In this document: positions 19,401-40,400 of the stretch, piece after piece
How positions within the stretch are numbered: position 1 is the stretch's first letter
Layout of the letters: the number at the start of each line of letters is the position of its first letter
Source: Candidatus Omnitrophota bacterium
Lineage (GTDB): Bacteria; Omnitrophota; Omnitrophia; Omnitrophales; Aquincolibacteriaceae
Assembly: GCA_030698625.1 (NCBI GenBank)
Contig: JAUYMS010000048.1
Span: 21,879 to 85,878, forward strand
Direction: 5' to 3'
Length of the DNA: 64,000 nt
Notes under the pieces: generated by a model
What the model was told of the DNA's origin: nothing
The model's input: only the letters and a program-made list of their open reading frames with translations
Databases searched by the model: none
Made by a program: the position numbers and the translations under genes

Positions 19401-22400
19401 CAGATGAACATGCATGTCGTCGGAGCCGGAGACTATGTCGATCGCGGACCGTGGCCGGATCTGGGATACGAACTCAATAAGTTCTTCCGCGCTAACGGAA
19501 AACTTAAGTTCATCAACGGAAATCACGAGGTCTGGAAAGACTGGAATATTACCGGTGTGCACCTTCGAGTGCACGATGCGTTTCGTACCATCCTGGCCAG
19601 TGAAAAATTGGCAGAAAACCATATTAGCGAACACCTCAAAATCATAAGGCCGTTTGTCACCACCGTGGGGTGGGATGCTGTAAGGGATCAGGAGAAATTC
19701 ATAGAGCTGGAACGGCAATTAGCAGATCTGATGGCACGCTTCTTGGCAGAGGCAAAGAAAAACGGAGGTGTCCTGGATAATGAAACGATCGAAAGGTATG
19801 CCAATGTGGTGATTGATGCGGGAACTAACATGACGCATTCGCGTGAATATTGGTCACGGGAGTGGGGCGTTCACGGCAACTGGTTCGATACCCTGCTTGA
19901 TCGTTTGAATGCCCGCATGATCAACGAGGGCCGTGCGGCGGCCAATGACAGCATTAATGACAGCCTTCGCGATCGCTTGGCCGCGATTCTAGAGCCCGCA
20001 CCATTCGGAGAGTTGGATGCTGAGATTCGCGAGGGCCTCGAGGACGTTCGGGAACAGCTGTTGACCAATATCCGAAGCGGAGAGGGTCTCTTTACCCCGG
20101 TGGATTCTCTGATGTTTTCAGATACCGACGAAGTCCGCGCCCTTCTTCGTCGAATGAAAGAGCTCAAACGTGCCAACGAAGAAAAGCGCTTGCTGGGGCT
20201 CAGCCACGAACAAGTCAAGGTGCCGAGCCCCTTTGAGGAGACGGCAAAAGTGGCTCGGAGGTATCTGGATGAGACAAATAGGATTATCGGGTTCTTAAAT
20301 CGGGCCGTGAAAGAAGCAGAGATTCCGAGCTTTGAGGCAGAGCTGATCACGATGGAAAATATGCGCCATAACCCCGTGGTCCTCGAAACGGTGCAATGGG
20401 ATCTGGAGAATTTCAGGCAATTCTATGTTCACTCCCTCGGCATGGCGGTATCGCACGGCATCATCCCCTTTAAAGAGGGAACCACCGAGCTTAATGTCAG
20501 CTATAAGACCCGGGGCGGGCGCACCTTCGTAGGAGTTGCTGCGATCGATGCCATGCAAGTTGACATACGCCGGTTCTTTCAAAATATCGATAAGATCGAG
20601 GACACGGCTGAGTTCCGGCAGGAAATGGAAGACGCCCTCGGTCCCGCCTATGATATTTTGCAAGACTGGTACTCCGACCGACTCGGCATCCTCAAGGCGC
20701 CGGCGGTCTTACACTTTGCAGACATCGGCGGACCCACCAAATTTTACTTTTCCGACCCCACGGCTTACAGCCCCAGGAGATTTCAACCGAATGCGGGTTT
20801 TTTAATGTTTGGCCACGTCCCGATGTCAGAAATGAAAAAACGTGACCTTCCTTATCTCAACATGTCAACCCGATGGGAGTTGAGCGGATTCGTCAACGGA
20901 GATGACGGTATGTCCGAGGGGTATGACGGCCGCGGCTCGGTCGTTTTGATTTTCGACCGCGACGAGAATGGAGTGCTCGAGGGTTTCAGGCGATATGGTT
21001 TCAAGCGAACCTCTTTCTACATTATCAATAAGCTCGTGCCGCCGGAAGAGAAACTCCTCGCGGCGGCTGTGGCGGCCCTCAAAATAGCAAACGGAGAGAC
21101 CGAGGCGCCGGCCGATCAGGTTCGCGCCCGTGAACTGCAAGCGGAGATTGAAGAAAGGACGGAACGCATACGGGAATGGAAGGAAAGGGCCGAGCGTTTG
21201 GACCGAGACGGAGAAGAGATCGAAGATATTACGCTTTATAAGATTCCTCAAAAAACGGCGGACAGAATTCGCCCTTTCTTAAGCGGCGAGGGCCTGCTCA
21301 TGCATATGGTGGAGCAGAAACTGGAAGAGACCCGGAGAATTTATGGAGAGCTCTTAGAAACCGCTACTCAGTTCGGACGTGTTTGGAAGAAAGCCCATTA
21401 TAGGAAGAAGCTCAAAGCAACAAGCCGACAGCTTGCGAACTTTCGTATCACGACCGTCAAGAAGCTCCTCGATCGCGCCTCCAAGGCCTCCGGCCGGCTG
21501 CATTCGCAGGAAGTGCGGAGGCGCATCGACAAAGCGCTGTGGTACGCAAGGACTTGGCGCTATGCTCAATCCGAGAAGGCCGTTACCGCAGTTCTCAATA
21601 TCGTTCAGGGCCCGGAATTTGAATTGGGACCCAGCTCACAGCTTTTTGAGGATCTTGAGCGCGCGTATCTTATCCTCAGCAGGCATACCATGTCAGAGCC
21701 GGTTCTACTCCAACGCTCCGAGCTGCGGTCTGACCCTGCTGTTACAAGCACTGGTGAATCTGATGCTGAAGCTTTCAATGTCTATACCCCCGACAAAATT
21801 GTGCGCGGTATGGAGGAGGAGATCGGTGAGAAGCCGGTGCTCCTTGCCACCTTCTCAAAATACTTGAGGGCCATTGTGTCCCAGAGGACGGAAGGGGGCC
21901 GTACTGTGGCGATGCCTCCATTTTTCGTGATACCCGCCCATCTTTCCGAACGCATGCTGAGCAGCGGTCAGCCCTTCGACGAAATCACCAGAAGAAAGTT
22001 ATTGGAGAATCTCTTCGAGTTTAGCGAAAGAGGAACAGAAGCATTCGGTAAACCCGAATCACCGCTATTTCTTTCGATACGTGCAGCTGCACCGCGAATC
22101 GTGCCCGGCCAGTTTATTACTATCCTGAATGTCGGCATTAATGACGACACCTTTCCGGGTCTGGTTCAGCGCTTGGGAAGCCTTGAATTAGCCCAGAGCC
22201 GTTACTCGAAACTGATTCGCGACATTCTAATCGAAATCTATAATTATGAACGTGACGACATTAAGGAAAGTATGGATGAACTCCCGATCGAAAATTATGC
22301 GACAAAGGAGGAGTGGCGTTTAGCCGCACTGCGGAAGGCCTATCGAGATTTGCGCCAGGAAGAATTTCCGCAGGACGTTTACGAACAAGTGCGAATTATT

Positions 22401-25400
22401 ATGGATGGTATTTACAACCGCACACGATACACGTCAGCCGCTGCCGGAGCGCAGTTCCGAGGCGGTATTATGTTGCAACGCATGGTTTTCGGTATCGGAG
22501 AGAATTCTTACTCGGGCGAAATCGCCAGTCGGACATCAGAAGGGGACCGAATCATCCGGGGTAATATGGAGGCAGGCGTCCAAGGGGATGAAACAACGGG
22601 TGTCGTTCGGGTCGGTCAGGAATTCTTTCAGAGGTACCCGGAATTTACGAAAGCTATCGACGGTATTTTGACGGACGGTGAAAATTTTCTGCGCACCGCT
22701 GTTCAAATGGAGATTACCATCGAGAATAGCAAGGTCTATTTATTACAGCTGAAAGCGGCGGAGCGAACCAGTGATGCCGCGGCCGCCGTCATCATGGATT
22801 TGCTGGATCGAGGCGTCATTAATAGTGAGACGGCCTATGATATGGCTCAGAATGTCGACACGGATGCGCTGCGATTTGAAGAGGCGCTCGCGGGGACCGA
22901 TGCCCTGGTGAAGCTTGGCGGGGGTATTCACGTCTCACCGGGTGTTGCCGTTGGGCATCCGGTCATGACGAACGTAGGCGTGAATGAGAGCCGCCAGGGA
23001 GGAGTCCCCTACATCTTGGTAAAGCCCGAGATTCGTGCCCATGATCAGGAAGCCATTCAGGGTGCGAATGGCGATAAGGGTGCCGCGGCTATTGTGGCCC
23101 TCAATCAGATCGGAAATCATGCCGAGACCTTGGCGCTTATAGCGAAGATCCCCGCCGTGTTATCCGTACCCTTCGAGGAGATCGATTTACCACAGGGTAC
23201 ATTTTCGCTGCGTGGATCTGACGGTCAAGTGCATAGACTTCAGGAAACCAACCCGAATGACTTTATCTCGATTGATTCAGACGGCGCCATCTATTTAGGT
23301 AAGGCTGAAATTGTAAAGAGCCGCCGCAGCCTAAGTAAGCGTTCCGGTGATTTCCTTGCATGGAAAATGAAACTTGAGGGCAAGACGCCTGCCTTTGCCG
23401 TCAAAAGAGTGCCTTTCGGCTATGAAAGCTGGAGCACACCCTTCATCGAAGATGTGGTCAGTGAAAATGATTACTACCGCACGGTTCGTGACGGAGTGCG
23501 AGGCGATAAGAAGGTCTTTTTAATCGAACTTATTGATGTGGTCGAAGCCGAAGCAAAGCCGGATAAACAGAAAACAGAAAAGAAGGAACCTGAATATCGC
23601 ACTATTCCTGATTCGGTTATTATCGCGGCCGCTCAAGACGTGTTGGCTCGTGCCGACAGCATCGAGCAGTTCACTTTCTGGCTTTGGCGGCACTACGGTA
23701 AAATGGATCTTAATGCCTATCAGTTCGAAGAAAAAACGGAGAAGGGAAAAGAGATATTCTACGTGCCCTCTCACATTAAATACACAAACGAATCCGCCGC
23801 TCAAATTGCCTACATGCTGCGCGTCCTCAAGGGAAATCCTGAAAGGCTCGCGCAATCCATGTTTCATATGGTTGAGCGCCACAAGCCATGGAGCTATACC
23901 TTTAGGCGGGGGATCATTCCGCGCCTGTCGAGAGAGGATGCGTCCAAGTTCCTGGCTCTGGCGATGAACGAAGCTGTGAAACACGGGCAGAACCACATTG
24001 ATTTTATGATGCCCAGGCTCTTCGCGGAGCTTATCGAGAGTAACACCGAATTTGCGCTTGCCGTAATGCAAAAGGAATTTGGTCCCTTACAGCGCGGTTG
24101 GATGATGAATGGACTTTACGAGTTGTATGAACATCGTCGACTGCGGGAACGGACTATGGACTTTGATCTCCCTGCGGCGGAAAAATTAAAAGCGTTTCTG
24201 CTCGATAGTGTCGTGGATGCGGGAATCGAGTATCAGGTGGCGGAGAGGCATGAACACGGACCTCACGCCAGACGAGAAGTGACATGGACACATGACCCAC
24301 GCCTGCAGGACGAGATCGTTGCGTGGATTCGTACCCGAGAGAGGTCGGAATTGCGCGAGGCAGGGACCGCGATGCGGTCCGAGCTGCGCACCGGACCCGA
24401 TTCCGAGTATGTATCGAATGTCGTGTCGATATCGACAGCTGAGAATCTGTTGGATATCACGCCGGGCAGCATCAGTCAGCGATTTCCGGAATCAGACTAT
24501 GAGGCCCAAATCGATTGGAACCCCGGACTCATTCAATCAGACCGTGGTCTATCGCGGCTCACGATCATTCCGAAGACTGAAGGCAAAGCCAACCTTACCT
24601 ACGTCGTGAAGAGGGCCAACCCCATCAGGCGGGAGCTGGCGGCGCATTTCCAAGGTGAGGGCGATGTAGCCCAAGTTGCGTCTGATAGCGGGTTCGGCCC
24701 CGCCCTATTGCATCAAGAAGGCAACGTCATCATCGAAGAAAAATATCCGCCGGGGCATCACATCGCAGCTCGCGGTTTACTTCTTTCGCCCGTCGAATCA
24801 GCCGCCTTTGGCAGAAAGCTCGCCGGCGCACTTCACAGTATGATCACTCGGGGTCAGCTCGTTTACTACGGCGAAACACCTCAAACTCACATCATGATTC
24901 TGCCCACGAACAAAGACGGCCCCCGTATCCGCTTTTTGGACTGGAGCCATTCGCTTCCATTGCAGAATGACGCCGACCACAAAAATAAATTAGAGGCATT
25001 AAAACAATATGCCTACGTTATCAAAACCTTCTTGGCAAAACCGAGTAATAACATTTATGCATGGCGTAGTTTTGAAGCGACTTTCTTGAGTTTGGCGGAT
25101 ACGCTTGACATCGACTATTACGATGACCTTATCCACCAGGTTCGCAGCTACTATGCAAACAAGGAGACGAATCCGGATAAGGCATCTCGGGAATTATGGG
25201 GTGACTTTTTTTCGTATGCTGACGCGGCTCCGGACCTGGGCAGCGTTCGGACGACTATTGACCAGTCTGTGCCTGCAGAACGAGCTCCCGGAAAATTCGT
25301 TCAGAACCTACTGACATCGGTCAACATTGATTCGCAAGCCTTGCGCTCCGTCAAACTGATCTTGGAGCATGAGGAATATCTTGACGCGGAAATTGCGGAA

Positions 25401-28400
25401 GCCGTCGCGATGGACCTATTTGAGCGCGGCTACCTGGGGAGTAATGTGAATCGTTCCGGCGATGAAATTGCCAACGCTGCGGAAAGCTACCTTGCAAGTC
25501 AGGGCGTGGCCGCAGATGCCATAACGGCCATGCAGGAATCAATACGCCAGGAATTTTCCGAGAAGAACACGGGAATGGACAGAAGGTTTTTTTTAGGTGC
25601 GATTCAACGATTGGCCAAGCAACACAAGCTTTTCGAATCAATGAATCGGCGCGCGTACCGTCAGCTCGCAGAAGGTTTCTTCTCCTATCTGGTCGCTATT
25701 GAAGCAAGGCGAATCACCTTCAAAACCTCGATCTTACCCAACCTGCGAAATCGCGACGAGGGCGAGACATTGGAAGTTTACCTTGAGGGGAATCCCGATA
25801 CCCCCATCAAGGAATATGCGATTAAAGGGCGGCACAAAAACGGGGGCGGTGAACCTGCCCGTTCAACCCGTGCTTCAGAGATGAATTTGGGTCCGCACGT
25901 TGTCTTTGCGCGCAACGAGGAAAGGGTTCGGGAAAACGGGGGCATGCGGAGAATACCGCTCCGCATCGTAGAAGATTTATTGCCTCGCGAGCGGAACATT
26001 CGTCGTATCAGCCCCGGGACATTCACAGAAAATCCACAATACATGGGGATCCTGGTAGATAACGTGGCGACGAAGATTTACCGCATGGTTGATCCGAAGC
26101 GAGGCGACAGGACCATATTGCACCGTTTTGATAATGCCCCGGACCATATGTATATTTTGGACGCTGAACACGGTTTTGATTTCCTGATGATCGACTGGGG
26201 CTTTTCCAACTCGCTTATTCTCCCGACTTATGGCAACGATGCCGCCAAACATCTGGAAAGCATTTTCTCCGTCCTCTTGAGCGAGTTTAATAAGTTCGGG
26301 CCCGACTTTTGGAGCCGGTTCAGAGAGACCCTCTTGCAAATAGCGCGGATCAACGGAGGGCTGCTCGAGGCAGAAATCGAACAAGCGTTTGATAAGGTGC
26401 CCTACCAACCGTCTCGGCAGCGTTCCGAATTGCGCGAGGCAGGGACCGCGATGCGGTCCGAGCTGCGTATGCCGGATGAAGAAATTGCCGATCGGATACT
26501 GGATAAGATTTCACCCGAACGTCGGGGCAAGCGGAGCGTCACAAAGGCGCGTGTCCAAGAGCTGCAAGATGCCGTTGAAGCGGTGCGAACCATGTTGACG
26601 GTAGAAAATACCAAGAATGAACCCCCGGACAGCGACGTCTTTAAGAGCGAAATCTTTAATGCGATAGTCGACAGCAACTTAGTCCACGATTACCGGTTTA
26701 CAACCGGCCGGAACGCACCCAACTTTGCCGCAATGTTTCTTATCGACACGCAAAAACTTTTCACGATGAACGGAGATTACTTCGATGAAGCCTTTCCGGG
26801 AGAGGAAAAACCCCGCTATCTGGCAGTGATGGTAGGCCGGGATGCGGTGGTCGCAACAGCCATTCAAAGCGATCTCAATACGGATGATTTCAAATTTTGG
26901 GTGGACGGCGATTGGAAACATAAACTGTCCTCTGATTTTGACCTCGAGCAGTTTCTGCTTTCAAAAGGGGGCGTGCGCTGGTGGCAGATCGGAGAGTCGG
27001 GACCCTTGCGCGATGTTACTTATGACCAGAAAATAGCAGGAATACAAAAGATAACGAAAGACAAGCGGTTGGAGGCGAAGCATTTTCTCCTTGAACTTTT
27101 CAACCTTGCCCGAGCCATGTCGAACAAGAATCCGCCGGCGAATGTCTTTTTTGAGGGCGGGAAGACGGTTATTTTGGCAAGACAAAAGACGGACTTCGGG
27201 AAGTATCACAATCAGGATGAGATCCTCGCGCGGGCCCGGGAATTGGCTCTGGGCGCGGAGGTCCCAGTTGACGAATCATTTTCAACGGAGGATTTCAACG
27301 GTTGGTTTTCAGATGATGCGCGATCGCTAGAAAAGGACAGCCCCGTTTCAAAGCGCCACCGGATCGCGCAGCAGGTATTCAAAGAGCAAGTCGTTCGTGA
27401 CTGGGTCAAATCCGCGATCACAACAGGTGTGCTCGGGAAACGGTACCTTGCGGGACCGGACATGGCGACCGCGGATGTCATGAAGCTCGTTCAGGACACG
27501 GCTGATGAAGTCCATAACGATCTCGATTTATACCCCGCGCGCGTGACTACCAGTATCAAGGGGGAAGATGCGACCTTCGACCACATCAAATGGCGGACCA
27601 CGAGCATTAGTGTCGTGGCAACACTGCTTTCTTTTATTGATAACGAAGAGTTGATGAAGCGCGCCGGTTATGATCCAACTGATCCGGAACTAAAAATCGA
27701 TATCGTCATTCAAGGTTTTGGTGATGTGGGAACCGGGATCATTAATTACCTCTATGAGTCGCATAAGAACCGCTTGGACGGTTATGGGGGACCCATCCGC
27801 ATTGTGGGTGTTTCGGATGCCGACGGCGGGATCTACAACCATGGAGGTCTCGACATGGAGGAATTAAGGCGCCTGGCCAAGATCCGCGTGGGCGATGATG
27901 AAACTGAGGGAAGGCTTGTCGGCTTGTGGGATGAGTATTTGGGAGGGGAAGAGGCCCGCAAAGAGCCGGAGGCCAAGAAGGAGGCAAAGACACAGCGCGT
28001 TGACCACGGTAATGACATTTTCTATGTGCGTAATAAACATGAAGGGCGCATACGTGAAAGGCCGCTGATCGGAATCCCCGCCGCGGTGCCCGACGTTTTT
28101 CGCAGTGCCCAGGATATTCAGAAATTAAAGGACGATAGTGTCGTTGGGCTTATTTCGCCGGCGAACAATGTGCTCAAAGAGAACGCGGGCTTGGAGGCCG
28201 TACTGCAGGATCTCGGTATCTTCCTCTATGACGGCCCGCATGCGGGATTGGGCGGGATCTATTCGTCTTCGGCCGAGATATACGCCATCATGACGAGGGG
28301 CCTAGAAGCCGTTCGCAGAACTATGAGAGGTAACGACGATGTCTATGAAACGGATTATTATAAAATCCGTACACAGAGTGCCGTTAGAAACACTTCGCTT

Positions 28401-31400
28401 TCGATCAGCCGTTGGCTCAATCATCAGTACCTTTCAGCGATTAAAGCAGGTAGGCCCACCCATTTTTCTGAGATCCAGCGCAAGCTGGCAAAGAGCATTC
28501 GCCAAGCGAAAGGAAATTTCCTTAAAGACCCGAATCTGCGAGCAGGCCTGCTCAAACGCATTGAACGTACCATCGACAAGGTGCTGCCGAGATTGGAAAC
28601 GACTCATGAGGGCAGGGAACTCACAGAGCAACAAAAGAGGCAGCAGCGAGATCTCGTTAAACTTATTATCATTTTAAAGCACGTCGTCGATAGTGCTGTG
28701 GAAACCGTTGTTTATGGCCACGATCCCGACCATATTCAAACTCTCGTAAAAAGACTTGAAACGAACGACCGCAGTACAAGGCGAGCACGAGTAGCCCAAC
28801 AGATCGCGGCTTATGACCTCGCCGTGATGCGCGCTGCGGGTACGGCGTCGACAATGATTGCAGTCTTGCTCGATACAGACAATCGTGACGCCTTGACCCG
28901 GTCCAATGCGGCCTGGGCGCTCGGGATGCTGCGTTCGAAAGACGGTATTCCTCATCTGAAAACGGCACTAAAGGACAAAAGCGTTTATGTCCGTGTCGCC
29001 GCCAGAAGAGGCCTTGATCAATTTTCTCCGGCCGAGCTCGCAGAGACTGAGCGCTCAGAACTTCGCAGTGCGGATACTGTCGGAGAAACAGCAGAACGCG
29101 CGCCGCCTAAGGGGATAAGAATTGCGCTCGAAAAGGGTTGGGTGATCGCCAACCACATCTTTATGTCTGTCCACGCCGCGTTCTTGTTCCCCTATTATAT
29201 TGACCGGTTTGTGGAACGCGTTCTCGTTCCCCAAGGTCTGATTCCTAAAGACCATCTCGTGTTGCTCCCCGAAAGTCTCATCTTAGAATTGATCACGGGC
29301 TTCATCTTGGCGTTTGCGACCGGGTGGATTGCAATTTGGTGGCATGAGCGCGGGCATTACTGGGAGGCCGTGCGCCAAATCACGCTTCGTAAGGATCTTC
29401 TCAAGGAAGCCGGCCGCCGGCTTAAAAAGGGCGGACTCACGCGGCTTTTCTCGGAAGTAAAGATGGCCTTTCTTGCCCCTCTCGGCAAATTCCCCGGCAT
29501 CAAACGCATCGGCCTGACCTTTATGCCGGAATCTCCTTATAACCTTGACGTCGCGGCAGCGGGACCCGCAGCGAGCGGTTCCCTGGCGCGGGTGTTATTG
29601 GCTCTAGGCATCGTGTTTATCGTCATCGGTCTTTTCGGGCATATGGCCATCCCGGCCATTATCGGCCGCGTGTTTCTCGGAGTTGGAACCGTGGCTTTTC
29701 TCGACCGCCTCTTTGCCGATCCGGGTAAACTGCGCGAACTTCGCGTGCGCGAGCGACTCGCAAAAGAGGCCAGTAAGACAGTCGCAGAGAAGATGAGCGG
29801 CGGTGAAAAATGGAGTGATCAGATGGCGGATGTAAGGAATAAATTGCGGCATCAGCGTCAGGAAGTCGTCGGATGGCTCAAGGCGCCTTGGGGTTGGCGT
29901 AACTCTGCGATGGGCGGCGTTCATACCGAGAAAGAATATCCCGAGAGTAATATCAGTATGCAGGAAGGCATGTTTATTCCCATTTCACCTAGGAATGCAG
30001 AAGACGCCCAGGAAATGACGGTGGCTCTGCAGGAGCGCTTAAAGCAGATTATTGACGGTACGGAAGGTTCCCGTGTCATGGGAATCGGTTTAGAGGGAGG
30101 CCTCGCAGCCTACATCACGCCCGCAGAGGGAGACTGGGTGCCGGAACAACGCCTTTACCGAATGATGAAGCAGGCGATCATGGACCTTGGCTATATTCCG
30201 GGTAAGGACGTGGCTCTCGCCCTCGACCCCGCAGCGAGCGAGTTAGAAAATATGTATCGTGAAGAATTTCCCGATGCCGTCGGGATGTACCGTTTTTGGC
30301 GGGCCGATAACCCCATCGACGTGCCGCGCGATTCTGAGGACCCCAACCAGCCTTCTATGATGGGGATTTATCGTAAGATGATCGCCGAAGGCATTCCCAT
30401 TATCTCCATTGAAGACGGTTTCAGTGAGCGTGACTTTGAAGGGTGGCGGCTGCTGATGAAAGAATTTGGCGACAAAATGTTTGTCGTCGCCGACGATTTG
30501 GCCACTACGAATGACATGACGGTTGAAAAGGTTGCGAAAATGGGACTCGCCAATACCCTGCTTGTTAAAGCGAATCAAATCGGCACTCTTTCAGAAACTG
30601 TCTCGGCGATGCTTGTCGCCTTAGGTTATGGCATGGACCTTATCGTCTCGCATCGATCCAAGAAACCCAATGACACCATGGAAGCCCATATCGCAATTGC
30701 GGTGTCCTCAGTCGGTCTGAAAAGCGGCGGCGGCTCCAACACCGAGCGTCTGATTGTCTATCACGAGATTGTGAAAATCTTGCGGCGCATGTCTAAAGTT
30801 CAGACGGCTTCTCCGGATCAGATTCCGGAAGACGAAAGAGCCCGGCTTGACGCGATCGAACAGGCTTTCATTAATGAACTGACGATTCGCGACATCCTGG
30901 CCTTCGAAGAGCCGACGAATGCGGGCGTGCCGACGGTCGGTGTGGAGGTCGACGTTGGTATCCCCGGCGGCAGACTACGCATTCCGTTTACGGCATCGAC
31001 ACCTCTGGGAACATCATCCGGTACGGGTGAGGCCATCCATCTAGTCGATAATGCTATTCCTGGCGGAACTTTGATCCACCGCTACAAGGATCTCTTTGAG
31101 CAAACCGAAACGGTCGGGATCTACCATTTTAAAAAGCGAATCACACGAAAGGAGATCGATGCCCTTGGCGATAGTGACCTGACAAAGCTTTGGGTCAAGG
31201 CAAATCGGTTCAAGGGTAAGGGTGTTTTAAATGCGGCCGAACATGCCGAGCACATCCTTGGAAAAGATTTTCTGGATATGAAACTTGTCGAAATTGAGAG
31301 TCTAGTCGAGATTGACCAGCGTCTCCTCAGAGTCGAGTTTGATCGTGCCGGCAGCCGCGATCAGGACACTTCCGACCCTGTTGCCATCGCTCAGCGCAAG

Positions 31401-34400
31401 GCCAATTTGGGAATGAATGCGATTCTCTCTATTTCGCTGGCCATTGCACGTGTTAAAGCGTGGTCGGAGGGTAAGGAACTTTATCATATCATTCGCGAGC
31501 AGATGGAAGAGACCATGGCGAAGGTGATTGCAGCACAGGCGGATGGTGAGTCGGCTGGTCAGTGGGCGACCGTGCTTGAAGAGAATAGTTTCGATGAATT
31601 GGTGATGGCGTTTCAGGAAGCTTCGGGCAGAATCGCACAGAGTGAAACGCCTCTCTATGAAGTCGTTCGTCAACACCTGCCGGTTTATGACATCAACGGC
31701 GGCCCAAGCACCGTCAATGCCGACCGGTCCGAGCTGCGTCAGACACAGTATGAGCCTAAATCCGTTGAGGTTTTTGCCGAAGGCCTTGAGATGGGAGAGG
31801 CTGCTGCTGAACGTATCATCGAGGTGGCGGCGAAATACCACAACGAGGGCGGGGCCGTCATCCAAATTCCCACAGGATCTACACCGGTGCCGATGTACTG
31901 GCACCTCATCAAGCGCTTCGAAGAAGACCGCTCAATCGATTTGTCGCGCGTCAAATTTTTTAATCTCGATGAATATGTCGGCCTTGAGGCCAACCACCCG
32001 CTCAGCTACCAGTTTTTTATGCAGGAAGTACTCTACAAGCATCTTGATGCTATCGATAAGCAGCAGCGATTACAGCGTGCGCCGAAACCCGAAAACCGCA
32101 ATGTGCCCTCGATCGATTTTTTGGAAACGCATACCGGATACCGCCGCGAGCAGGGTGCGGACGCGGCTGCGGCCATCTATGAAGCTCGCCTTGCCGAGGC
32201 GGTGAAGGCGACGGGGCGCAACATATCGGACCTTACGATTCTGGGCGCCGGCGGCGCCTACCCCTTAGACGGACCCAACGGCTTCCTTAAGACCGACGAC
32301 GGCCGGTTTATCCTGGCCGGCGGGCATATCGGCTTTAATGAGCCGGGTTCCAAGCTGACCGACCGTACGCGTGTCATCAACCTGACGGCCAAGACCAAGA
32401 AGGACACGGGCTTTCGCTTCGGTAATATCCTCAAACGCGGCGATTATCGCGGCCAGTGGGCGGCCAAGGTGCCGGACCAGGCGATTACATTGGGTGTTGC
32501 CAATATTTTGCAGAGCGCCGAGATTCTTCTCCTCGCTAACGGCGAAGAGAAGTCGATCGTCATGAAAGAGGCCTATGAAAACGAGCCCAATCCGGATTTT
32601 CCCGTAACCTTCCTAAAATATCATAAGAATGTTCACTGGCTGCTTGACCGCGATGCCGCCAACAAGCTGCCGCATGTGCTGACACCCTGGACGGAGTATG
32701 AGGATTACGAGTGGACTCAGACAGGCATACGTCAGGCTGTCATCGAGGCACTACGCCGCAATCCCGGCATTACCATCGAACAACTGCGGCGCAGTCATCT
32801 CAACGCTATCGGCGTGACAAACCCGACTCTTGCCCGCTTCGGCGGCATTACGCAGATCAAAGAAGATCTCCGGACCTTTCTGCAGCCGCACTTTTCAACC
32901 GGCAGCAAGGCTCTGTTACCGCGCCGCCAGAACATTGTCATTTTCTCGCCCCATCCTGATGACGATGCGATTACCTCAGCGGCGACGATCCGCAAGCTGG
33001 TGGAGCGAGGCAACAATGTCACCATCGTTTATCAGACCGGAGGAGAAAATGCAGTTCGCAAGGAAGGTAAAACGATACAGATCCACGCGAAACTGGTCCG
33101 CGATTTCATTGCCCGCAAGGGCAAGGATCCGTCCGGCGTCGAAGACCTCGAGCTTCAGCGCATAGCACGTATCCTCACACGCAAAGAGGAGGCCGACAAC
33201 GCCGTTGCTGCCGCAGTTCGCGGCGCACGTTCGCGGGGAGGAGAACTCGGCACCGTGAAAACATTATTTATGGACCTGCCTTACTATTATGCGCGCGGTT
33301 TCGTTGACCAGGCCGCAGTGAGTGAGCAGAAGGATGTGATGCCCACCGTCGACGTATTGAATCAGCTGAATCCGGACCACATCTTTATTTCGGCCGAGCA
33401 GGACCCGCACGGGGCGCATGGCCTCGGCGTCAAAGCCATTCAGCGGGCGCTTCTGCACAACCGGTCCCGAGTGTCGCGGCATGTCAAGATCTGGGGTTAC
33501 CGGGGCGCTTATGAAGAGTGGCCGCTCGAAAACCCGGAAGGCCTCGTCATTGTTCCCTTCGATGAAGCGGCCATGGAAATAAAAATTGATTCAATCCTTG
33601 AGCATGTCTCCCAGCTGAAGCCTCTTTTCCCGAGTTTTGATCCGCGTGAGTTCTGGGAAAGGGCCCGTGACCGCAACGGAGCGACGGGCCGATTGCTGCA
33701 ACAGCTGGGTTTGGTTCCGCCTGACGGCAATTTCTATGCCGAGGTTTTTCGCATAATGACGTTTGAAGAGTTCACCGGGGCACGCTCGGAGCTGCGGGTA
33801 TCCGTCAAAGAAGTCTTGGTCGGGCTTGCGCTCGTGGGTGTGCTCGCGACCGGGTCGCACGGCGCACTACCGGCGAATCAGACGCCCACGCTTGCCCGTG
33901 CCACGCTTACGGACAGAAGCACGCTACCTTACGGGGTTATTTCGGATCACCCGGTGGTTGTCCTGACCGCCGATTCTTTTACGGTTCAAAAATCCGGGAG
34001 AAACCACTACCTGGTGCCTTCAGGAAGCGGTCTCAAGATTCAAGTCACTGCCGGCAGTGTCGAGGTTCGTGACGGTCTCGTGATTCAGGTCAGCGAAGGG
34101 GACCGGCACTTGGCGGCGTTCAATCTCAAAGGGGAGGTCAAAAAAGCCGTTGCGGCCTCGAATGAACGCAAACAAGGTGAGCGCGATTTGACCGACCTGC
34201 GGCAATTGGCGGTCAATTTAGGGACGGCTCTGAATCGCTCCTTTTCGAGAATAGACAGTGTTTCCCATGATTTTGAGATAATGCAGGCATTGAAGGCGTA
34301 TCGAGATCGTGTCGCAAAAGGTATTGATCTCGAGACGGATAAGGAGGCGCAGGAAGCTGTCGCCGAGATCGTCGCGGCTTATTTGGCGCGCATCGAGGCG

Positions 34401-37400
34401 GAACAACAGATTCAGCGCGGCATTGCGGATGCCGCCGAGCAATTGCTGCAAAGCAAGGACGTTTACGTCAAGGGCGCCGCGGCGAGTCTGCTGCTTGAAG
34501 TCTACGTGGCGGGCCGCATCGAGAATCTCAAGCAGTTTGATCGTAAAGCGCATCGGTTCGTTTCGCTCGGCGATCCCGCCGAAAAATACCGCAAGCAACT
34601 GGAAACGGCCCTGGCAATCGACGCGAAGGCCCTCGACATTGCGGTGACTGCGTTGGAGCAGGCGATCAAGGCATTAAAAGATGAGATCGCGAAGCTTCAA
34701 CCTCTCGTAAAGGCGGCAGACGATGAGCTAAAAGCGCTTGAAGTTGCCAGATCAACCGCCGAGAAAGCTATGGGAGATGCGAGGCAAAAAATCACGGCGG
34801 AACAGTATAAGCTTCGCCCCAAATACCTGTCGCGGTCAGGGGCCGCCGTCGGTTTGATCGCCCGTCTTGCCGAGGCGGAAAAAGATCTGACGACGAAGGA
34901 GAAGCGTGACGCGGCGATAAAAATCAGGGAAGAAATCGCTGTCGTCGAAGCGGCCATCCGTCAGCTCGATAAGGCGGTGGGTGCGGAGCAGACTAAGTGG
35001 TCCGCCGCGGACAAGGCGGTTCCCACGGCCCGCGGCAAAGCGATGCGGGTGAGTGGGCAGCTTACGCTGCGTCAGAAACCACTCAAGGCATTGGAAGATG
35101 CGCTCGGTCCGATTCGAGTCGCGCAAGAGGCCGCGGCAGCATCGCGCTCTGAATTGAGAATATTAGAAAGAGTAAAAGAAAGAACTCGGAAGATTGTCAG
35201 CGGAATCAAGTCCTACTCCGCTGCGTTCACGTATTACACGCAGGGAATAAGGCGCCGTCTCGACTTTGCCCGGGAGGTCGCATGGGCTGTTCTCAAGACC
35301 CGCCCCGCGATATTTATCGTTGCAGTGAGTCTTTACCTAGGTCTCTTTATGTGGGGCCGAGAGGCATTGCATGAACGTTATGTTCGGCCCAAGGTTGAAG
35401 TGGTCCGTTTTGATGAGCAGGGCCCGAATATCAGCCGCATCAGAATCGTCGACAACTCGATGAACCAAGCCCTGACTGCAACCGAGGAACGCCCCGAGCT
35501 CCCGTTTGCCGTCGTCCGCGCCCTTCGGACCATGGGGGCGACCGATGCGATAAGGCTTTCGCAGGTCAAGCAGATCGGCGCCACCGACTATCGCGAGCTT
35601 GACGACGGTAATCATGCCGTCACCATTAGTGCCGAGGCCCACGATCCCAATATGGTGCATCCGCCTCTGCATGATGTGACGGTTGTGTTGGAAGGCCCGG
35701 ACGAAGTCCCCAATGCCCAAGACGTGACGAATGTCCAGACGATGCTGATGGGCGAGCCGATTAAAGGCAAACTCGATTTGCAAAAGCACTTTGCCGACCT
35801 CTTCTATTTTGTGGTGGCAGGATTCGTCCCCATTCTCATTTACGTATTCGTAAGAAACGTCAAAATTGTTGCCGCAATGCCTTCAAGCATAAGAAAGAAG
35901 ACGAGGCGGAGGGTCAAGCCGAAAGAAGGCGCCGAGGATAAGCCTGCCGGCGAGGGCCAGCGACGCGACGCCGATGACCGCAAGCCCGGGGATCGCCCGG
36001 ACCGAGGCCGGCGCGACCGCTCGGAACTGCGTGAGGATGAGGGGAAAATTGTAATTGAAATTGATTTTCCGGCGAACCGCAATATCGATGACTTTCTCCT
36101 GGAGCGATTGCCTGCGATGTTACGGCAGAAGGGGCTTTATGAAACCGATGCTCTGGAGTTTGCAAGTGGTACGCTTGAGGTCGATGGGCAGACGCGCACG
36201 ATCGGTGTCAACAATATTAGCGTTCGGTACGACAAACCGGGGAAGGTTAAGCTTGTCTATAATGCGGAGCTTGCCGAAGAGCTTCGCCCCCTCAGTAACT
36301 TGAAGTATGAGGCATCCGATGCGGTAAGTGCCGCGGTTAAAAAACTTCTGTACTCTTCATATCGGCGATCGATGTTTGTTGCGGATCAAAAGTTGAACCC
36401 GTATCTCGACGTGGGTTCGGTGATTTATTTTAAGGACCCGGTCCCGGGCCTTCCGCCGGTCGTGGCCTTTGTCGGTGCAGGGAAGCAGGACGTCACTGTG
36501 GGCGAGGAGAAAGAGACGCGAAGCACAATTATCGTGAAATCTCTCTTTGCTGACGGCAAGCAATACGCGATTCCCGTCAGTAGTCTTGGCAAAGTCAGAG
36601 GCTTGGTCGATCGCATCCAAAACGATGAAGTGGAAATGGTGATTCCGAAGTCACGGATTGAGGCTGCGGTCGGACGCTATTTTATTCCAACCATTACGAA
36701 TGAGATGGCTAATCTGATTGAGAGATCGCATGCGACTTTCAAAGATCTGGCTGAGAACGTGCGTGTCAGGTTGCGTCTTTCTCCGCAAGGACAGATGCAC
36801 TTTCACCTGAGTGCTTTCGAAGAGGATTTTGATGCGCTGGCCGAGGATGGCTTTGTCCTGAGCGGTGACACCATTGCAAGCGCTGACCTCTATCTCGACA
36901 AGACGCGGCCGTCCCTGCGCGATCTCTATAAAGTGCTCACTTGGGATCTTCCCGCGAAGGCAAACAAACGGGAGGAGCGACTGCAGGAAATCAACGACGG
37001 CGCAGGATTCGGCGCTATCATTAGTGGTCTCGTCGAGTATCAAGACTCAGAAAATATGCTGTATCTTATTAGCCCGCCTGAGTTCGAAAAAGGCAAGCTG
37101 AAGCTTGGCGAGGATGCGCGCCAGATTGTTTGGACGGCCGGTTCCGAAGATGGGCTGCTTTTCGACGAATCTTTCGTTAAAGACGGCAAGCTTTCTCTGA
37201 AGTGGAATGCCCTCGACGGACAGGCGTGGTTTGTTGCCGTCATGCGGCCTACCCTTGATGTGAGTGACCGGAAACTGGTGATTCGCTTTGATCCGAAGAA
37301 GTTGGCGGAGCTCCCCGAGACGATTCATTTAGAACTCAAGAATCCGTCCGGGACCTCCATTCAACACGTTGAGTTGACCAAGGAAAGTCTTCAAGCGGCA

Positions 37401-40400
37401 AGGGGTGTTGCCAATGTCGCCCTTTATGCGGACTTCGGTTTCTTGGCTGAAGTGGCAGTAACCGTCAATCGCGAAGGGGCCGCCCTTGAAAAGGGCAGTG
37501 TCGTGATCGAGAGTATGTACACGCTGGAGCGTACGGACAAAGACCCGCCGGCAGGTAAGGCACCGTTTACGGTTGAGGAGACGACAACAAAGGGTCTGCA
37601 TGTTCGCTGGGAGGCGGCCGGTTTCTTTGACATGAAGGCAGCAAAAAAGCCTCCGCTCGATCTCCATCCCGATCTTTTAGCGAATTCCCGTTTGGGTAAG
37701 ACCTACAATGACTACCGAGTACTCGGCATAACGGGCGTAGATAAAAACGAATGGGCCCTTTCCGATGTGAAACAATTGAAGATCACCCTGAGCGGCGACA
37801 AGATTCCACAAGGGTTTTATCTTGTGGTTGCCAATACAGACCAGCCGGACGGGGTCGAATATAAGGGCCTTATCCGCCTCGCGATGCCCCAATCGATCGT
37901 GGGACAGAAGCTGGCCAAACCGACGACGCTTACCGTCGATTTTACCGCAAAGGGCCCGAAGCTCTTCCGGGACATTACGCCCGCGCGGGCGAATGCGCCG
38001 ATCGAAGCGCGCACGGTTGAGAACTTCGGTAAAGTGGGATGGGTGGCACTTCTTTTTAAGCCGGGGGACTTCGCCAAAGACCTGAAGCCCGAGGAGCACG
38101 TCGCCGACTTCAATGTTCACAGCATCGAAGTCGTGCGTTCGGAGCTGCGTAATTTAGAGAGGTTAAAGACAGAGGCAAAGGCCCTGCTCGAGCGCGCCAA
38201 GCCCTTCTACAACGAAAAGCTTGACGCAGCTATTGCCGAAATAGAGGCTGAGAATTTTACGCGTGCGAGCGACATTGTTGTTGAGGTCATTGGAATTGCA
38301 ATCGATAGGCATAACATGAAGCCCACGAGTGCCTTTGTGACGAGTCTGTGGAAGGTCCACTCCACACTCGAGCAAGCGGCGGATCTCAAGCGTTCGGAAC
38401 TACGGGTTGAATTAGCGGCGGATGAGGTGGCGACGGCCAACGGGTTGATCCGCCATCTTTCACCCAAGACGCCTCAGGCGGAGATTCCTAAGGATCACGT
38501 GCTTGTTGTGCTCGGTAATCCGCATGCGGATTATCCGGACTATGTGGCTGAGTTAGCGGAATATCTCGGCCCCACTAAGATTGTGATTGTCGGTAAAGGT
38601 GTCCGTGACGGCGAGGTCCCGGAGTGGAGAAGGATTCGCGACCGCATCGTAGACCTCAAGCCGGCGCTCGCCTCTAAGATCCTCGTGGATGAAAACGACG
38701 CCTCGATGCATACGGGTATGAATGTCACAACCGTTGCGAAGATCCTAAAAGACAACGGCATTACGAATCCTAATCTTGTGCTAACCCAAATTCCGACCGG
38801 TGTCCTGCTCTCGCGGCGTATCTTTGAAAAGCAGTGGGCCGAAAATGCGGCCCGAGCGGGCCTGAACCTGACCCCGAACTTTTTGACCTATGCGGTGGAC
38901 CGGAATTTCCGTCTCGCCGCTAACAAACCGTTAAGCAAACGTGCAGTATTCGCGGTGGAACATGCCCTGGGCCAAGTCGAACGTCTGCGCGACTGGCCGG
39001 CAAATGAAAACCCGCCTCTTGATGCGGTTGAAGGTGATGTCACGCCTGAAATTCTCAGTGCTTACGGCAGTCTGCAACGTGCACTCAAGCGCTCGGAGCT
39101 GCGTGATCTGGAACCCACGCGCGTTCTCGTCGCCGATGAACCGCAGGGCGGCGACATTGAGCCGCTGCGTGAAGTCGTGAATTTTTTTGCGGGAGACGCG
39201 GTTCTCATCGAAGGTGAAATCGAGGGCACCAGCAAGGTAGGTATCGGTGCTGATCACGATAAACTCAGAAAAGTTATTGAACAAGATAAGCCGGACGTCA
39301 TCCTGATTCGCTCCGGCGTTAAGAAAATCTTCAAGGACCCGGATTTCTTAGAATTCGCCGCGGCTAATGGCGTGCGCGCTATCATCCGCATGGGTGCGGG
39401 TATCGATAACGTTGATGATGTGATGGCCGCGGAACTCGGCATCGCTGTGATTCGTACGCATGGCAATGCAAACTCCGTGGCAAACGGGTTTTTGCGTCAG
39501 TTGCTTGCCGGTCTTGAGGCTGAAGACGGGCGGCTTGGCGAAAGCAGTGGGCCGGATCTGAGCGCCTCAGACCTCGGAGACATTTTTGACATTGATATTG
39601 ATGAGCTCGTCGCGGCAGAGGCCGAGGCCTCGAAGAATGCCGCCCGCGGTAAGACGCATCCGGATCAGGCAGGAAAAGTCTTCCACTCCATCTCCGCTGT
39701 GCGGGCCCGCGAACTACTTCAGAAGTTGGAGGGCCGTACCATCGGCCTCATGGGATTTCGTGCCGTGGCCTGGGCCGTGGCCGAAAAACTTAACGAAATC
39801 CGTACTCGCTTGAATATTGATTTTAAGATTGTCGCAACCTCTCCGACCCTCGATGGCAAGAATAAGAAAAAGGCGGCCGAGACCGCGGTCTTGCGTGAGG
39901 TCGCCGCTAAGTTTGGGGTGGAATATCCGGGCGAGGACGCGGTTTTGGCCGAATCCGATATCCTCTCGCTTCATATGTCCGCGGGTGACGAGCCTTATTT
40001 CACTAAGGAAATCCTCGAGAAAACAAAGGCCACGATTTGGATCAACACGGCAAGACAGGCGCTCATTGATGAAGACGATCCCGCATCGCTTAAGGCATTG
40101 AACAAGGCTTTCTGGGACGAATTTGTGGCGCGAGGGAACTTTTATTTCTCAGATGTGGATGCTCACGCGGCCTTTGAAGCTTTGCTGGCCGAGCATACCG
40201 GTCATCTTTTCCGCTCGCCGCATATCCTCGCCAGCACGGTGAACGCAGGTGAAGGGGTTAAGGCGCTGACGCTGCCCACGCTGAAAACCACGATCGAGCT
40301 GATGCGCGGCCTTGAGCAATCGACGCCTGACTTTGTCCTGGAGAACCTGAACGGTATATCTCTCGCTCCCAAAACCCCCGAGGTGCGCGGTCCTTTTGAT

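What the first reader, a model, noticed from the sequence alone, without database searches (positions are those of the whole stretch)
29250..35860. Several internal transmembrane helices imply a polytopic topology for a 10-kaa chain
Besides the N-terminal anchor there are 3-4 TM helices at nt ~29250-29710 and further hydrophobic helices at ~33807-33860 (VLVGLALVGVLATGS), ~35307-35360 (AIFIVAVSLYLGLFMWG) and ~35800-35855 (LFYFVVAGFVPILIYVFV). If all are inserted, successive enzyme modules would alternate between the cytoplasmic and periplasmic sides. This is hard to reconcile with one functional compartment unless the chain is cleaved into pieces. That argues independently for processing.
Basis: inference. 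Interest (0 to 1): 0.5.

Follow-up and report, generated by a model that had tools for sequence, protein, structure and literature searches.

The report
Membrane segments inside a giant modular protein
The water-repelling stretches inside this 10,303-residue bacterial protein are real, but they sit in four self-contained modules, so most of them do not flip the chain across the membrane; only two export-signal-like stretches at module starts conflict with a single uncut chain.

Summary
The ORF at 16455..47366 (+, 10,303 aa) is real, and every hydrophobic stretch named is at the stated coordinates.

- **Modules.** The pentapeptide RSELR occurs 18 times (0.025 expected, with synonymous codon variation) and divides the chain into protein-sized modules. 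Hydrophobic segments fall in only four of them.
- **29.1-29.7 kb cluster.** It is a conserved four-helix membrane domain with an invariant HExxH, distantly M50/site-2-protease-like. It heads a module that is 42-48% identical over its full length to widespread stand-alone ~870-aa proteins. The family's charge pattern indicates both ends in the cytoplasm.
- **Helices 6282-6302 and 6448-6467.** They form a hairpin in a 286-aa orphan module, again with both ends inside. Neither unit makes enzyme modules alternate sides.
- **The real conflict.** It comes from two signal-peptide-like segments with hydrophobic cores of only 10-12 aa. One is at Met1 and the other starts six residues after RSELR 5777-5781. 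Uncut, the first would drag normally cytoplasmic modules outward.
- **Processing.** Cutting at RSELR resolves the conflict. A second lineage uses a different separator (ERGAV, 21 times). Cleavage is inferred, not shown, and no protease was identified.
- **Limits.** The three isolated helices have no homologues, and their hydrophobicity alone is not beyond chance.
- **Precedent.** Giant bacterial proteins with a signal peptide plus internal membrane helices are already described.

The parts
16455..47366 (+). Giant ORF, 10,303 aa. It is a chain of 17 protein-sized modules (80-1,046 aa; two 6-aa spacers between doubled separators not counted) separated by 18 RSELR pentapeptides.
   Evidence: RSELR occurs 18 times in this frame and 0 times in the other five frames, against 0.025 expected from composition.
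16500..16571 (+). N-terminal signal-peptide-like segment or anchor (aa 16-39, LLKTTAWIIALVFLVDTVAWSAPV). The N-flank is basic and the apolar core is 10 aa.
   Evidence: Five homologues (P0085-P0089) and the giant ORFs in L001 and L096 all begin with a comparable hydrophobic segment, several with AxA-type sites.
29052..29066 (+). RSELR separator (aa 4200-4204), 24 aa upstream of the invariant GWVIANHI. It marks the ancestral N-terminus of the membrane/enolase-like module.
   Evidence: In the WOR-3-type members whose start codon is clear, the stand-alone protein begins 13-14 aa before GWVIANHI; in many other loci the start is ambiguous.
29139..29204 (+). Helix A (aa 4229-4250), with invariant N4233, H4234 and H4240. 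It is weakly hydrophobic in this protein (KD 1.32) but reaches TM grade in most family members.
29262..29357 (+). Helix B (aa 4270-4296) running into the only HExxH of the whole protein (H4297-E-R-G-H4301).
29358..29579 (+). Basic cytoplasmic loop after the HExxH. Counted over aa 4297-4375, which includes the HExxH, it holds 14 K+R. It has two short helices, a beta-hairpin and the invariant N4363...P4371..S4374 motif.
29580..29705 (+). Helices C (aa 4376-4396) and D (aa 4398-4417). Helix D ends in invariant D4417, and invariant D4422 follows just after it.
29940..31490 (+). Enolase-like domain in permuted order: the C-terminal barrel (aa 4496-4780) precedes the N-terminal domain (aa 4821-5012). 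It is predicted cytoplasmic.
   Evidence: The whole module (aa 4225-5080) aligns at 42-48% identity to stand-alone proteins.
31725..31739 (+). RSELR separator (aa 5091-5095), about 13 aa after the point where stand-alone homologues end.
33783..33797 (+). RSELR separator (aa 5777-5781), between the NagB/PIG-L-like module and the orphan module that starts with a signal-like segment.
33798..33869 (+). Signal-peptide-like start of an orphan module (aa 5782-5805, VSVKE-VLVGLALVGVLA-TGSHG-AL). The apolar core is 12 aa and small residues sit at -3 and -1.
   Evidence: No homologues were found.
35145..35159 (+). RSELR separator (aa 6231-6235).
35298..35360 (+). First helix of the hairpin (aa 6282-6302), with an 18-residue run free of strongly polar residues. 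It is preceded by a basic 46-aa segment.
35361..35795 (+). Acidic 145-aa loop (15 K+R, 23 D+E), predicted periplasmic.
35796..35855 (+). Second helix of the hairpin (aa 6448-6467, KD 2.24). It is followed by a very basic tail (aa 6468-6521, 18 K+R) and then RSELR 6522-6526 (nt 36018-36032).

Best explanation
The giant ORF is a head-to-tail fusion of proteins that are separate genes in other bacteria, often neighbouring ones. The joins carry the invariant pentapeptide RSELR. The hydrophobic segments are each module's own targeting or anchoring signal:

1. An N-terminal signal or anchor for module 1.
2. A conserved four-helix, HExxH-bearing membrane domain, distantly site-2-protease/M50-like. 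It anchors a permuted enolase-like domain on the cytoplasmic face, with both ends inside.
3. A signal-peptide-like segment that opens the orphan module starting at aa 5782.
4. A two-helix hairpin with a roughly 145-aa outside loop in the orphan module aa 6236-6521, again with both ends inside.

Units 2 and 4 have an even number of helices, so they are topologically neutral and nearly all enzyme modules stay cytoplasmic. Units 1 and 3 fit only if their modules are released from the chain.

The most likely mechanism is endoproteolytic cutting at RSELR in the cytoplasm, followed by independent targeting of each product.

Shown: the segments, the modular layout, the homology and the family-level charge pattern.
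Inferred: the actual insertion of the isolated segments, the cleavage itself and its timing.
For: **Separators act at the peptide level.**
- RSELR occurs 18 times against 0.025 expected, all in one frame.
- Codons vary synonymously at every position of the motif.

**Separators coincide with ancestral protein ends.**
- Module aa 4205-5090 aligns over its full length, at 42-48% identity, with stand-alone 800-970-aa proteins in most of the related loci examined.
- Where the start codon is clear, these proteins begin 13-14 aa before GWVIANHI.
- Module aa 5096-5776 (681 aa) spans most of the 653-residue NagB/PIG-L-type model NF002557: the best stretch covers profile positions 170-638 of 653, and a second stretch covers the NagB-like N-terminal part, E = 5.8e-99.
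- Module aa 1759-2629 (871 aa) matches stand-alone PPDK-like neighbours of about 890 aa.

**The membrane domain is conserved.**
- Invariant residues: N4233, H4234, H4240, H4297, E4298, H4301, N4363, P4371, S4374, R4405, D4417 and D4422.
- 35 of 40 members hit Pfam Peptidase_M50 weakly.
- The AlphaFold2 model has pLDDT 83.
- The charge pattern supports four helices with both ends inside.
- Helix A reaches TM-grade hydrophobicity in most members.

**Signal-like segments sit at module starts.** These are aa 19-37 and aa 5787-5805, the latter beginning six residues after RSELR. Module-1 homologues all begin with a signal-like segment.

**Separators are lineage-specific.**
- L111 is an independent giant ORF of >= 5,419 aa. 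It carries E[RA]GA[V] 21 times against 0.03 expected, with synonymous variation. One copy lies 32 aa before GWVIANHI.
- L001 has RSEVR and RSEMR.
- The Omnitrophica relative P0085 has ASELR, ARSEAR and SRSEGR after module 1.
Against: - No processing protease was identified, in the ORF or in the window.
- The three isolated segments have no homologues, and their hydrophobicity alone is within chance.
- The single-sequence AlphaFold2 model of these two modules is uninformative (pLDDT 44).
- L001 has no RSExR at its membrane-module junction.
- L043, L119 and L096 combine a signal peptide, an N-terminal extension and the same membrane domain without any repeated motif. An uncut arrangement of signal peptide plus this domain therefore exists in nature.
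- The M50 assignment is below Pfam's threshold (12.8 against 27.2 bits), and Foldseek found no significant PDB match.
- No dedicated TM or signal-peptide predictor was available.
Confidence: 0.55

Rival explanations
1. The chain stays intact as one polytopic inner-membrane protein of the signal-peptide-plus-TM type described for Omnitrophota giants. The signal peptide exports the first ~4.2 kaa. Helices B-D, with helix A not spanning, bring the chain back in. The 5787 segment is not inserted. The 6282/6448 hairpin displays one loop outside. RSELR is then a non-cleaved linker, docking or modification motif.
For: - This architecture is common. 38.9% of 916 long Omnitrophota proteins are SP+TM, with a mean of 22 TM helices at >= 10 kaa.
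- No protease was found.
- L043, L119 and L096 carry a signal peptide plus the same membrane domain in one ORF without separators.
- Helix A is weak in this protein (KD 1.32).
- With helix A and 5787 not spanning, the topology is self-consistent.
Against: - It would place outside the cell an ATP-grasp PPDK-like module and a Rossmann dehydrogenase-like module. The PPDK-like module's stand-alone relatives lack any signal peptide.
- In the ~2,000-aa homologues the PPDK-like part lies on the same side as the enolase-like domain.
- Helix A is TM-grade in most family members. Its invariant N/H/H residues sit at the end predicted to face the HExxH.
- It leaves unexplained why separators coincide with ancestral protein termini, and why a signal-like segment follows one of them by six residues.
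Confidence: 0.3
2. The three isolated segments (aa 5787-5805, 6282-6302 and 6448-6467) are not membrane or targeting elements. They are chance hydrophobic stretches or buried helices. Only the conserved cluster spans the membrane.
For: - Shuffled sequences of this composition give more KD >= 1.6 windows than observed (10.7 against 7).
- A comparable window (aa 5343-5361, KD 1.66) lies inside the soluble NagB-like domain.
- There are no homologues to show conservation.
- The AlphaFold2 model has low confidence.
Against: - None of the three lies in a recognised soluble domain.
- 6284-6301 and 6449-6466 are the only runs of >= 17 residues without strongly polar residues and with KD >= 1.8, against 0.53 expected. 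Both fall in one 286-aa module, which is 2.8% of the chain.
- Their flanks obey the positive-inside rule.
- 5787 lies six residues after a separator, mirroring the conserved signal at Met1.
- On the biological hydrophobicity scale, as recalled from memory, there is a gap. These segments score <= 3.9 and the known buried helices score >= 4.8.
Confidence: 0.15
3. The HExxH membrane domain is itself the processing protease that cuts the chain at RSELR.
For: - It holds the only HExxH in the 10,303 aa.
- It has weak M50 sequence and fold signals.
- All invariant residues are retained in this protein.
Against: - The same domain, with the same invariant residues, occurs in many stand-alone proteins from genomes that lack separator motifs.
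- It also occurs in L111, whose separator is ERGAV rather than RSELR. Its conserved role is therefore not cleavage at a lineage-specific site.
- Site-2 proteases cut membrane-embedded or membrane-proximal segments, not soluble linkers (established knowledge of the M50 family).
Confidence: 0.1

Closest known systems
Omnitrophota-type giant proteins of the 'SP+TM' and 'multi-enzyme metabolic cluster' classes (bioRxiv 10.1101/2023.11.21.568195; bioRxiv 10.64898/2026.06.07.730766)
   Same: - A single ORF of >= 10 kaa with an N-terminal signal peptide, scattered internal TM helices, many unrelated enzyme-type Pfam domains and HEAT scaffolding.
- Post-translational cleavage has been suspected for this class.
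- The closest homologue of module 1 comes from a Candidatus Omnitrophica MAG (42% identity).
   Different: - There are only 7 internal hydrophobic segments in 10.3 kaa, against a reported mean of 22.
- They are organised as module-autonomous units.
- An explicit repeated separator (RSELR) marks the module boundaries, whereas the 2023 preprint states that cleavage points are unknown.
- No C39, S8 or SecA-like domains were found here.
- The taxon of the window was not established.
Site-2 proteases / Peptidase family M50 (RseP, SpoIVFB, M. jannaschii S2P)
   Same: - A polytopic helical membrane core with HExxH at the cytoplasmic end of a TM helix.
- A following beta-hairpin, an A-G-P-type motif at the start of the next helix, and an invariant Asp at the end of the last core helix.
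- Weak Pfam M50 hits in 35 of 40 members.
   Different: - Scores are below Pfam's gathering threshold.
- There is no LDG motif; the sequence is LLD[F/R].
- An extra N-terminal helix carries invariant N-H...H.
- There is no PDZ or CBS domain. Instead the domain is fused to a permuted enolase-like domain.
- Foldseek and a PDB sequence search find nothing.
- Proteolytic activity is untested.
Viral polytopic polyproteins (for example flavivirus), from established knowledge
   Same: One long chain contains cytosolic enzymes, membrane-spanning segments and internal signal sequences placed directly after cleavage sites. A short conserved site motif marks the junctions. The topology only makes sense together with processing.
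   Different: - This is a cellular bacterial gene set among ordinary chromosomal genes (dnaX and recR upstream, a response regulator downstream).
- No cognate protease was identified.
- The modules are homologues of ordinary stand-alone bacterial proteins.
- Cleavage is not demonstrated.

Membership tests
Peptidase M50 / site-2 protease | HExxH zinc-binding motif within or at the end of a transmembrane helix | tested here: met
   H4297-E-R-G-H4301 follows helix B directly. It is invariant in the alignments of 40 and 48 family members and is the only HExxH in the giant protein.
Peptidase M50 / site-2 protease | Third zinc ligand, an Asp in an LDG-type motif in a later transmembrane helix | tested here: inconclusive
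   D4417 (in LLD, at the end of helix D) and D4422 are invariant. The motif is not LDG, and model coordinates could not be inspected.
Peptidase M50 / site-2 protease | Match to Pfam PF02163 at or above the gathering score | tested here: not met
   This protein scores 12.8 bits against a 27.2-bit cut-off (E = 0.072). 35 of 40 family members match at E <= 1, the best at 4.8e-5. One database homologue has a precomputed PF02163 hit.
Peptidase M50 / site-2 protease | Structural similarity of the membrane core to solved site-2 proteases | tested here: inconclusive
Peptidase M50 / site-2 protease | Intramembrane proteolytic activity | not testable with these tools
   This needs biochemistry.
Omnitrophota-type giant SP+TM multi-enzyme proteins | Single uninterrupted ORF of >= 10,000 aa | tested here: met
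   10,303 aa with no internal stop.
Omnitrophota-type giant SP+TM multi-enzyme proteins | N-terminal signal peptide plus internal TM helices | tested here: met
   Shown by hydrophobicity, flank charge and conservation of the N-terminal segment. The internal four-helix domain is conserved. DeepTMHMM and SignalP were not available.
Omnitrophota-type giant SP+TM multi-enzyme proteins | Many distinct enzyme-type domains tiling the chain, with HEAT scaffolding | tested here: met
   Metallophos, PPDK-N-like, ELFV dehydrogenase-like, HEAT, enolase, NagB-like, PIG-L and 2-hydroxyacid dehydrogenase domains.
Omnitrophota-type giant SP+TM multi-enzyme proteins | Encoded by a member of phylum Omnitrophota | tested here: inconclusive
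   The best homologue of module 1 is from a Candidatus Omnitrophica MAG (42% identity). The window's only exact match is an unnamed Logan contig. No marker-gene phylogeny was done.
Proteolytically processed polyprotein | Conserved short site motif at the boundaries of protein-sized units | tested here: met
   18 RSELR sites. The boundaries match the ends of stand-alone homologues for the membrane/enolase-like module, and module sizes match stand-alone proteins or models for the NagB/PIG-L-like and PPDK-like modules. L111 has an analogous ERGAV separator.
Proteolytically processed polyprotein | A cognate protease with matching specificity | tested here: not met
   No candidate emerged from Pfam or NCBIfam scans of the ORF and its neighbours. 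The HExxH domain is an unlikely candidate.
Proteolytically processed polyprotein | Demonstrated cleavage products | not testable with these tools
   This needs proteomics or expression experiments.

The most novel reading that the evidence does not exclude
This would be a cellular bacterial polyprotein. A gene neighbourhood's worth of secreted, membrane and cytoplasmic proteins is translated as one 1.1-MDa chain. It is cut at a lineage-specific pentapeptide (RSELR here, ERGAV in an unrelated giant ORF, RSE[VM]R in a third). Each product is then targeted by its own retained signal. The internal signal-peptide-like segment six residues after RSELR 5777-5781 would then be a signal that becomes N-terminal only after cleavage.
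Probability: 0.35. Interest if true: 0.85.

Novelty: new variant of a known kind. Interest (0 to 1): 0.5.

Why it matters
Giant bacterial proteins with many predicted membrane helices are described, but whether they act as one chain is an open question. The 2023 preprint says explicitly that no cleavage points are known.

This protein gives a concrete, testable case.
- Its membrane and targeting signals are organised module by module.
- The module boundaries are marked by an invariant pentapeptide that coincides with the ends of ordinary stand-alone proteins.
- The only topological contradictions disappear if the chain is cut there.

That turns the question of one chain or many into specific experiments at named residues.

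The work also points to two wider features:
- a widespread, unnamed protein family that joins an HExxH membrane domain to a permuted enolase-like domain;
- lineage-specific separator motifs as a possibly general feature of giant bacterial ORFs.

Tried and rejected
- **Homologues of aa 5778-6526.** An exhaustive HMMER search of 1.84 billion representatives gave 0 hits. A metagenome scan gave 0 confirmed relatives. Conservation of the three isolated helices could therefore not be tested.
- **Single-sequence AlphaFold2 of aa 5782-6521.** pLDDT was 44 and the model shows only long helices, so nothing can be said about packing.
- **Structure and sequence searches of the membrane domain.** Foldseek against the PDB gave nothing significant. 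A PDB sequence search with the family profile gave nothing relevant. The afdb50 library was unavailable.
- **RSELR as a repeated DNA element or RNA hairpin.** Rejected, because codons vary synonymously at every position.
- **Internal translation starts after the separators.** Rejected, because only one of the 18 sites is followed by Met.
- **The HExxH domain as the RSELR protease.** Disfavoured.
- **Literature search for RSELR.** Only irrelevant software names turned up. Searches for a bacterial polyprotein with enolase found nothing.
- **Module 1 as a TraB/Tiki-type hydrolase.** This idea came from my memory of the motifs. Only one of six members gave a faint ChaN/Tiki Pfam hit (E = 0.027) and there was no PDB hit. 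It is left as a lead.
- **Hydrophobicity alone as proof of TM segments.** Rejected after the shuffle controls.

Full report
**1. Observation**

The window holds one uninterrupted ORF at 16455..47366 (+), 10,303 aa.

Kyte-Doolittle 19-residue windows of >= 1.6 occur at aa 16-39, 4268-4294, 4377-4395, 4398-4416, 5343-5361, 5780-5805, 6275-6293 and 6448-6466. The 5343-5361 window lies inside the NagB-like soluble domain.

I also applied a central-position biological hydrophobicity scale, recalled from memory, so it is indicative only. It separates seven segments (sum <= 3.9) from the next candidates (>= 4.8). The latter lie in known soluble domains such as enolase and NagB. No candidate exists between aa 38 and 4228, or after aa 6467.

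**2. Is it more than chance?**

Hydrophobicity alone is not.
- Shuffling the 10,303 residues gives 10.7 +/- 2.9 windows at KD >= 1.6, against 7 observed.
- Runs of >= 17 residues free of D, E, K, R, N, Q and H with KD >= 1.8 are 2 observed (6284-6301 and 6449-6466), against 0.53 expected.

The case therefore has to rest on conservation and context.

**3. Modular frame**

The pentapeptide RSELR occurs 18 times in the ORF, against 0.025 expected. It is absent from the other five frames of the window, and its codons vary synonymously at every position. Selection is therefore on the peptide.

The motif cuts the chain into 17 protein-sized modules of 80-1,046 aa, plus two 6-aa spacers between doubled motifs. 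Hydrophobic segments fall in only four of the modules.

**4. The 29.1-29.7 kb cluster**

Module aa 4205-5090 aligns end to end at 42-48% identity with proteins in 141 species genomes and 108 metagenome stretches (the best 80 loci of each set were examined). Phyla include WOR-3, Dehalococcoidia, Aminicenantes, Planctomycetota and Omnitrophota. Nearly all are stand-alone ORFs of 800-970 aa, or the N-terminal part of ~2,000-2,300-aa ORFs.
- Where the start codon is clear (the WOR-3-type members), the stand-alone proteins begin 13-14 aa before an invariant GWVIANHI. RSELR 4200-4204 lies 24 aa before that motif.
- They end about 13 aa before RSELR 5091-5095.

The N-terminal ~200 aa form four hydrophobic helices: A 4229-4250, B 4270-4296, C 4376-4396 and D 4398-4417.
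- Invariant residues are N4233, H4234, H4240, H4297, E4298, H4301, N4363, P4371, S4374, R4405, D4417 and D4422.
- Helix A is weak in this protein (KD 1.32, because of an insertion) but reaches TM grade in most members.
- AlphaFold2 with 48 sequences gives pLDDT 83 and pTM 0.76. It shows four long helices, two short helices and a beta-hairpin in the B-C loop.

Evidence on the fold is mixed.
- 35 of 40 members hit Pfam Peptidase_M50 weakly, the best at 4.8e-5. This protein scores 12.8 bits against a 27.2-bit cut-off.
- Foldseek against the PDB and a PDB sequence search find nothing.

I therefore call it an HExxH membrane domain that works like, and is distantly related to, M50 proteases. I do not file it as a member of that family.

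**5. Topology of the cluster**

Mean K+R counts across the family are 2.8 in the 16-aa N-tail, 1.1 in loop A-B, 10.3 in loop B-C, 0.1 in loop C-D and 7.6 in the 29 aa after helix D. By the positive-inside rule this gives four spans with both ends in the cytoplasm.

The invariant polar residues then all lie at the cytoplasmic ends of the four helices, which fits a single active site. This last point is inference, because the model coordinates could not be inspected. On this reading the enolase-like domain and the upstream HEAT/dehydrogenase module are both cytoplasmic.

**6. The three isolated segments**

They lie in two modules, aa 5782-6230 and 6236-6521. Neither has a detectable homologue in 1.84 billion representative proteins or in the metagenome contigs. 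Neither has a Pfam domain. The single-sequence AlphaFold2 model has low confidence (pLDDT 44) and shows mainly long helices.

Segment 5787-5805:
- It starts six residues after RSELR 5777-5781.
- It reads VSVKE / VLVGLALVGVLA / TGSHG / A. That is a short charged start, a 12-residue apolar core, and small residues at -3 and -1.
- This is signal-peptide anatomy and is too short for a stable span.

Segments 6282-6302 and 6448-6467:
- Each has an 18-residue stretch free of strongly polar residues.
- The 46 aa before the first helix carry 11 K+R against 4 D+E (my count from the sequence).
- The 145-aa loop between them is acidic (15 K+R, 23 D+E).
- The 54-aa tail after the second helix has 18 K+R.
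- Together this describes a hairpin with both ends inside.

**7. The N-terminal segment**

Its apolar core is only 10 aa and its N-flank is basic. Five homologues of module 1 and the giant ORFs in L001 and L096 all start with a comparable segment. Some have clean AxA-type sites. The closest homologue is from a Candidatus Omnitrophica MAG (42% identity) and keeps the sequence DTV.WS.P. Module 1 is therefore natively exported or anchored outside.

**8.

The four-helix unit and the hairpin are topologically neutral, so enzyme modules do not alternate sides. The conflict comes from the two unpaired signal-like segments.

If the chain is uncut:
- The N-terminal signal would thread aa 38-4228 outward, because there is no stop-transfer.
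- That stretch contains a PPDK-like ATP-grasp module (aa 1818-2303). Its stand-alone relatives are ~890-aa proteins without any signal peptide, often encoded next to the membrane/enolase-like gene.
- In the ~2,000-aa homologues the PPDK-like part sits C-terminal to the enolase-like domain, with no consistently placed hydrophobic segment between them.
- The conserved membrane domain would also be inverted against its own charge pattern.

Cutting at RSELR removes every conflict.

**9. Independent support for separators**

- L111 is an unrelated giant ORF of >= 5,419 aa that contains the same membrane/enolase-like module. It carries E[RA]GA[V] 21 times against 0.03 expected, with synonymous variation. 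One copy lies 32 aa before GWVIANHI. It has no RSExR, and the window has no ERGA.
- L001 has RSEVR and RSEMR.
- P0085 has ASELR, ARSEAR and SRSEGR after module 1.

Lineage-specific short motifs at module junctions are what co-evolving protease and site pairs would produce. That reading is inference.

**10. Counter-evidence**

- No protease candidate emerged.
- The HExxH domain is a poor candidate. It is equally conserved in the many stand-alone proteins that lack separators, and in L111, which uses a different separator.
- L001 lacks a separator at its membrane-module junction.
- L043, L119 and L096 combine a signal peptide, an N-terminal extension and this membrane domain in ORFs of 1,420-3,214 aa without a repeated motif. 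Some uncut solution may therefore exist, for example helix A not spanning.

**11. Comparison with what is known**

Giant ORFs with numerous TM helices, and the suspicion of cleavage, are described for Omnitrophota.
- The 2023 preprint (10.1101/2023.11.21.568195) notes unreliable TM predictions and that no cleavage points are known.
- The 2026 preprint (10.64898/2026.06.07.730766) classifies 38.9% of 916 long proteins as SP+TM. It reports a mean of 22 TM helices at >= 10 kaa and describes a 'multi-enzyme metabolic cluster' class with HEAT scaffolding. It does not mention cleavage.

This protein fits that kind. What is new here is the module-autonomous organisation of the topogenic signals, the explicit separator, and the identification of the TM cluster as a widespread HExxH membrane domain fused to a permuted enolase-like domain.

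**12. Verdict**

The cluster is certain, the hairpin is likely, and the 5787 segment is signal-like rather than TM.
There is no alternation of sides, but there is a genuine conflict that processing would resolve.
- Interest is 0.5. It would be higher only if cleavage at the separators is shown.

Noticed in passing
window 24342-24392 and 26421-26471: Two junctions carry a doubled separator, RSELREAGTAMRSELR. The internal 41 nt (GAATTGCGCGAGGCAGGGACCGCGATGCGGTCCGAGCTGCG) are identical at both sites, which suggests a recent duplication or gene conversion of the junction.
   Followed up: partly
window 29940-31490: The enolase-like domain is circularly permuted. Pfam Enolase_C (aa 4496-4780) precedes Enolase_N (aa 4821-5012). 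The ~870-aa stand-alone family aligns end to end with this module, so it presumably shares the permuted order, but I did not check domain order in the homologues.
   Followed up: partly
L111:4487-20744 (metagenome contig ORMF011235868.1): An independent giant ORF of >= 5,419 aa has 21 copies of a different separator, (G/A)E[RA]GAV, with synonymous codon variation. It also has an N-terminal signal-like segment and the same membrane/enolase-like module.
   Followed up: partly
window 16455-18560 (module 1): Module 1 and its homologues share invariant Q-D-A-H-A ... E-G ... G-x-H motifs. From memory these resemble the TraB/Tiki/ChaN hydrolase superfamily. Only one of six members gave a faint Pfam ChaN/Tiki hit (E = 0.027) and there was no PDB hit.
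   Followed up: partly
window 21906-23363 (aa 1818-2303): This is a pyruvate,phosphate dikinase N-terminal-like (ATP-grasp) region (TIGR01828, E = 1.9e-37). Homologous stand-alone ~890-aa genes neighbour the membrane/enolase-like gene in several phyla, or are fused C-terminally to it in ~2,000-aa proteins. The giant ORF therefore looks like a fused gene neighbourhood.
   Followed up: partly
L126, L127, L135, L136 (just upstream of the membrane/enolase-like gene): A ~330-350-aa gene homologous to giant aa ~3100-3295 lies immediately upstream of the stand-alone membrane/enolase-like gene in several metagenome contigs. This is another conserved neighbour that is a module in the giant ORF.
   Followed up: no
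L043, L119 (1,420-aa ORFs) and L096 (3,214 aa): In all six ORFs examined where the membrane/enolase-like module has an N-terminal extension (the window, L001, L111, L096, L043 and L119), the ORF begins with a signal-peptide-like segment. This holds even where no separator motif exists. It is an unexplained recurrent pairing that poses the same topological puzzle on a smaller scale.
   Followed up: partly
window 816-13850 and 47381-60890: Upstream are polysaccharide-type genes: WbqC-like, two GT2 glycosyltransferases, a DegT aminotransferase, a hexapeptide transferase, PhyH and a TPR protein. They are followed by dnaX and recR. Downstream are a response regulator, a PHP-domain protein, an alpha/beta-hydrolase (S9/S15-like), a CHASE2 histidine kinase, a glucoamylase with a CBM9 module, and a TolC/HlyD-type efflux pair. 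None looks like a dedicated processing protease.
   Followed up: partly
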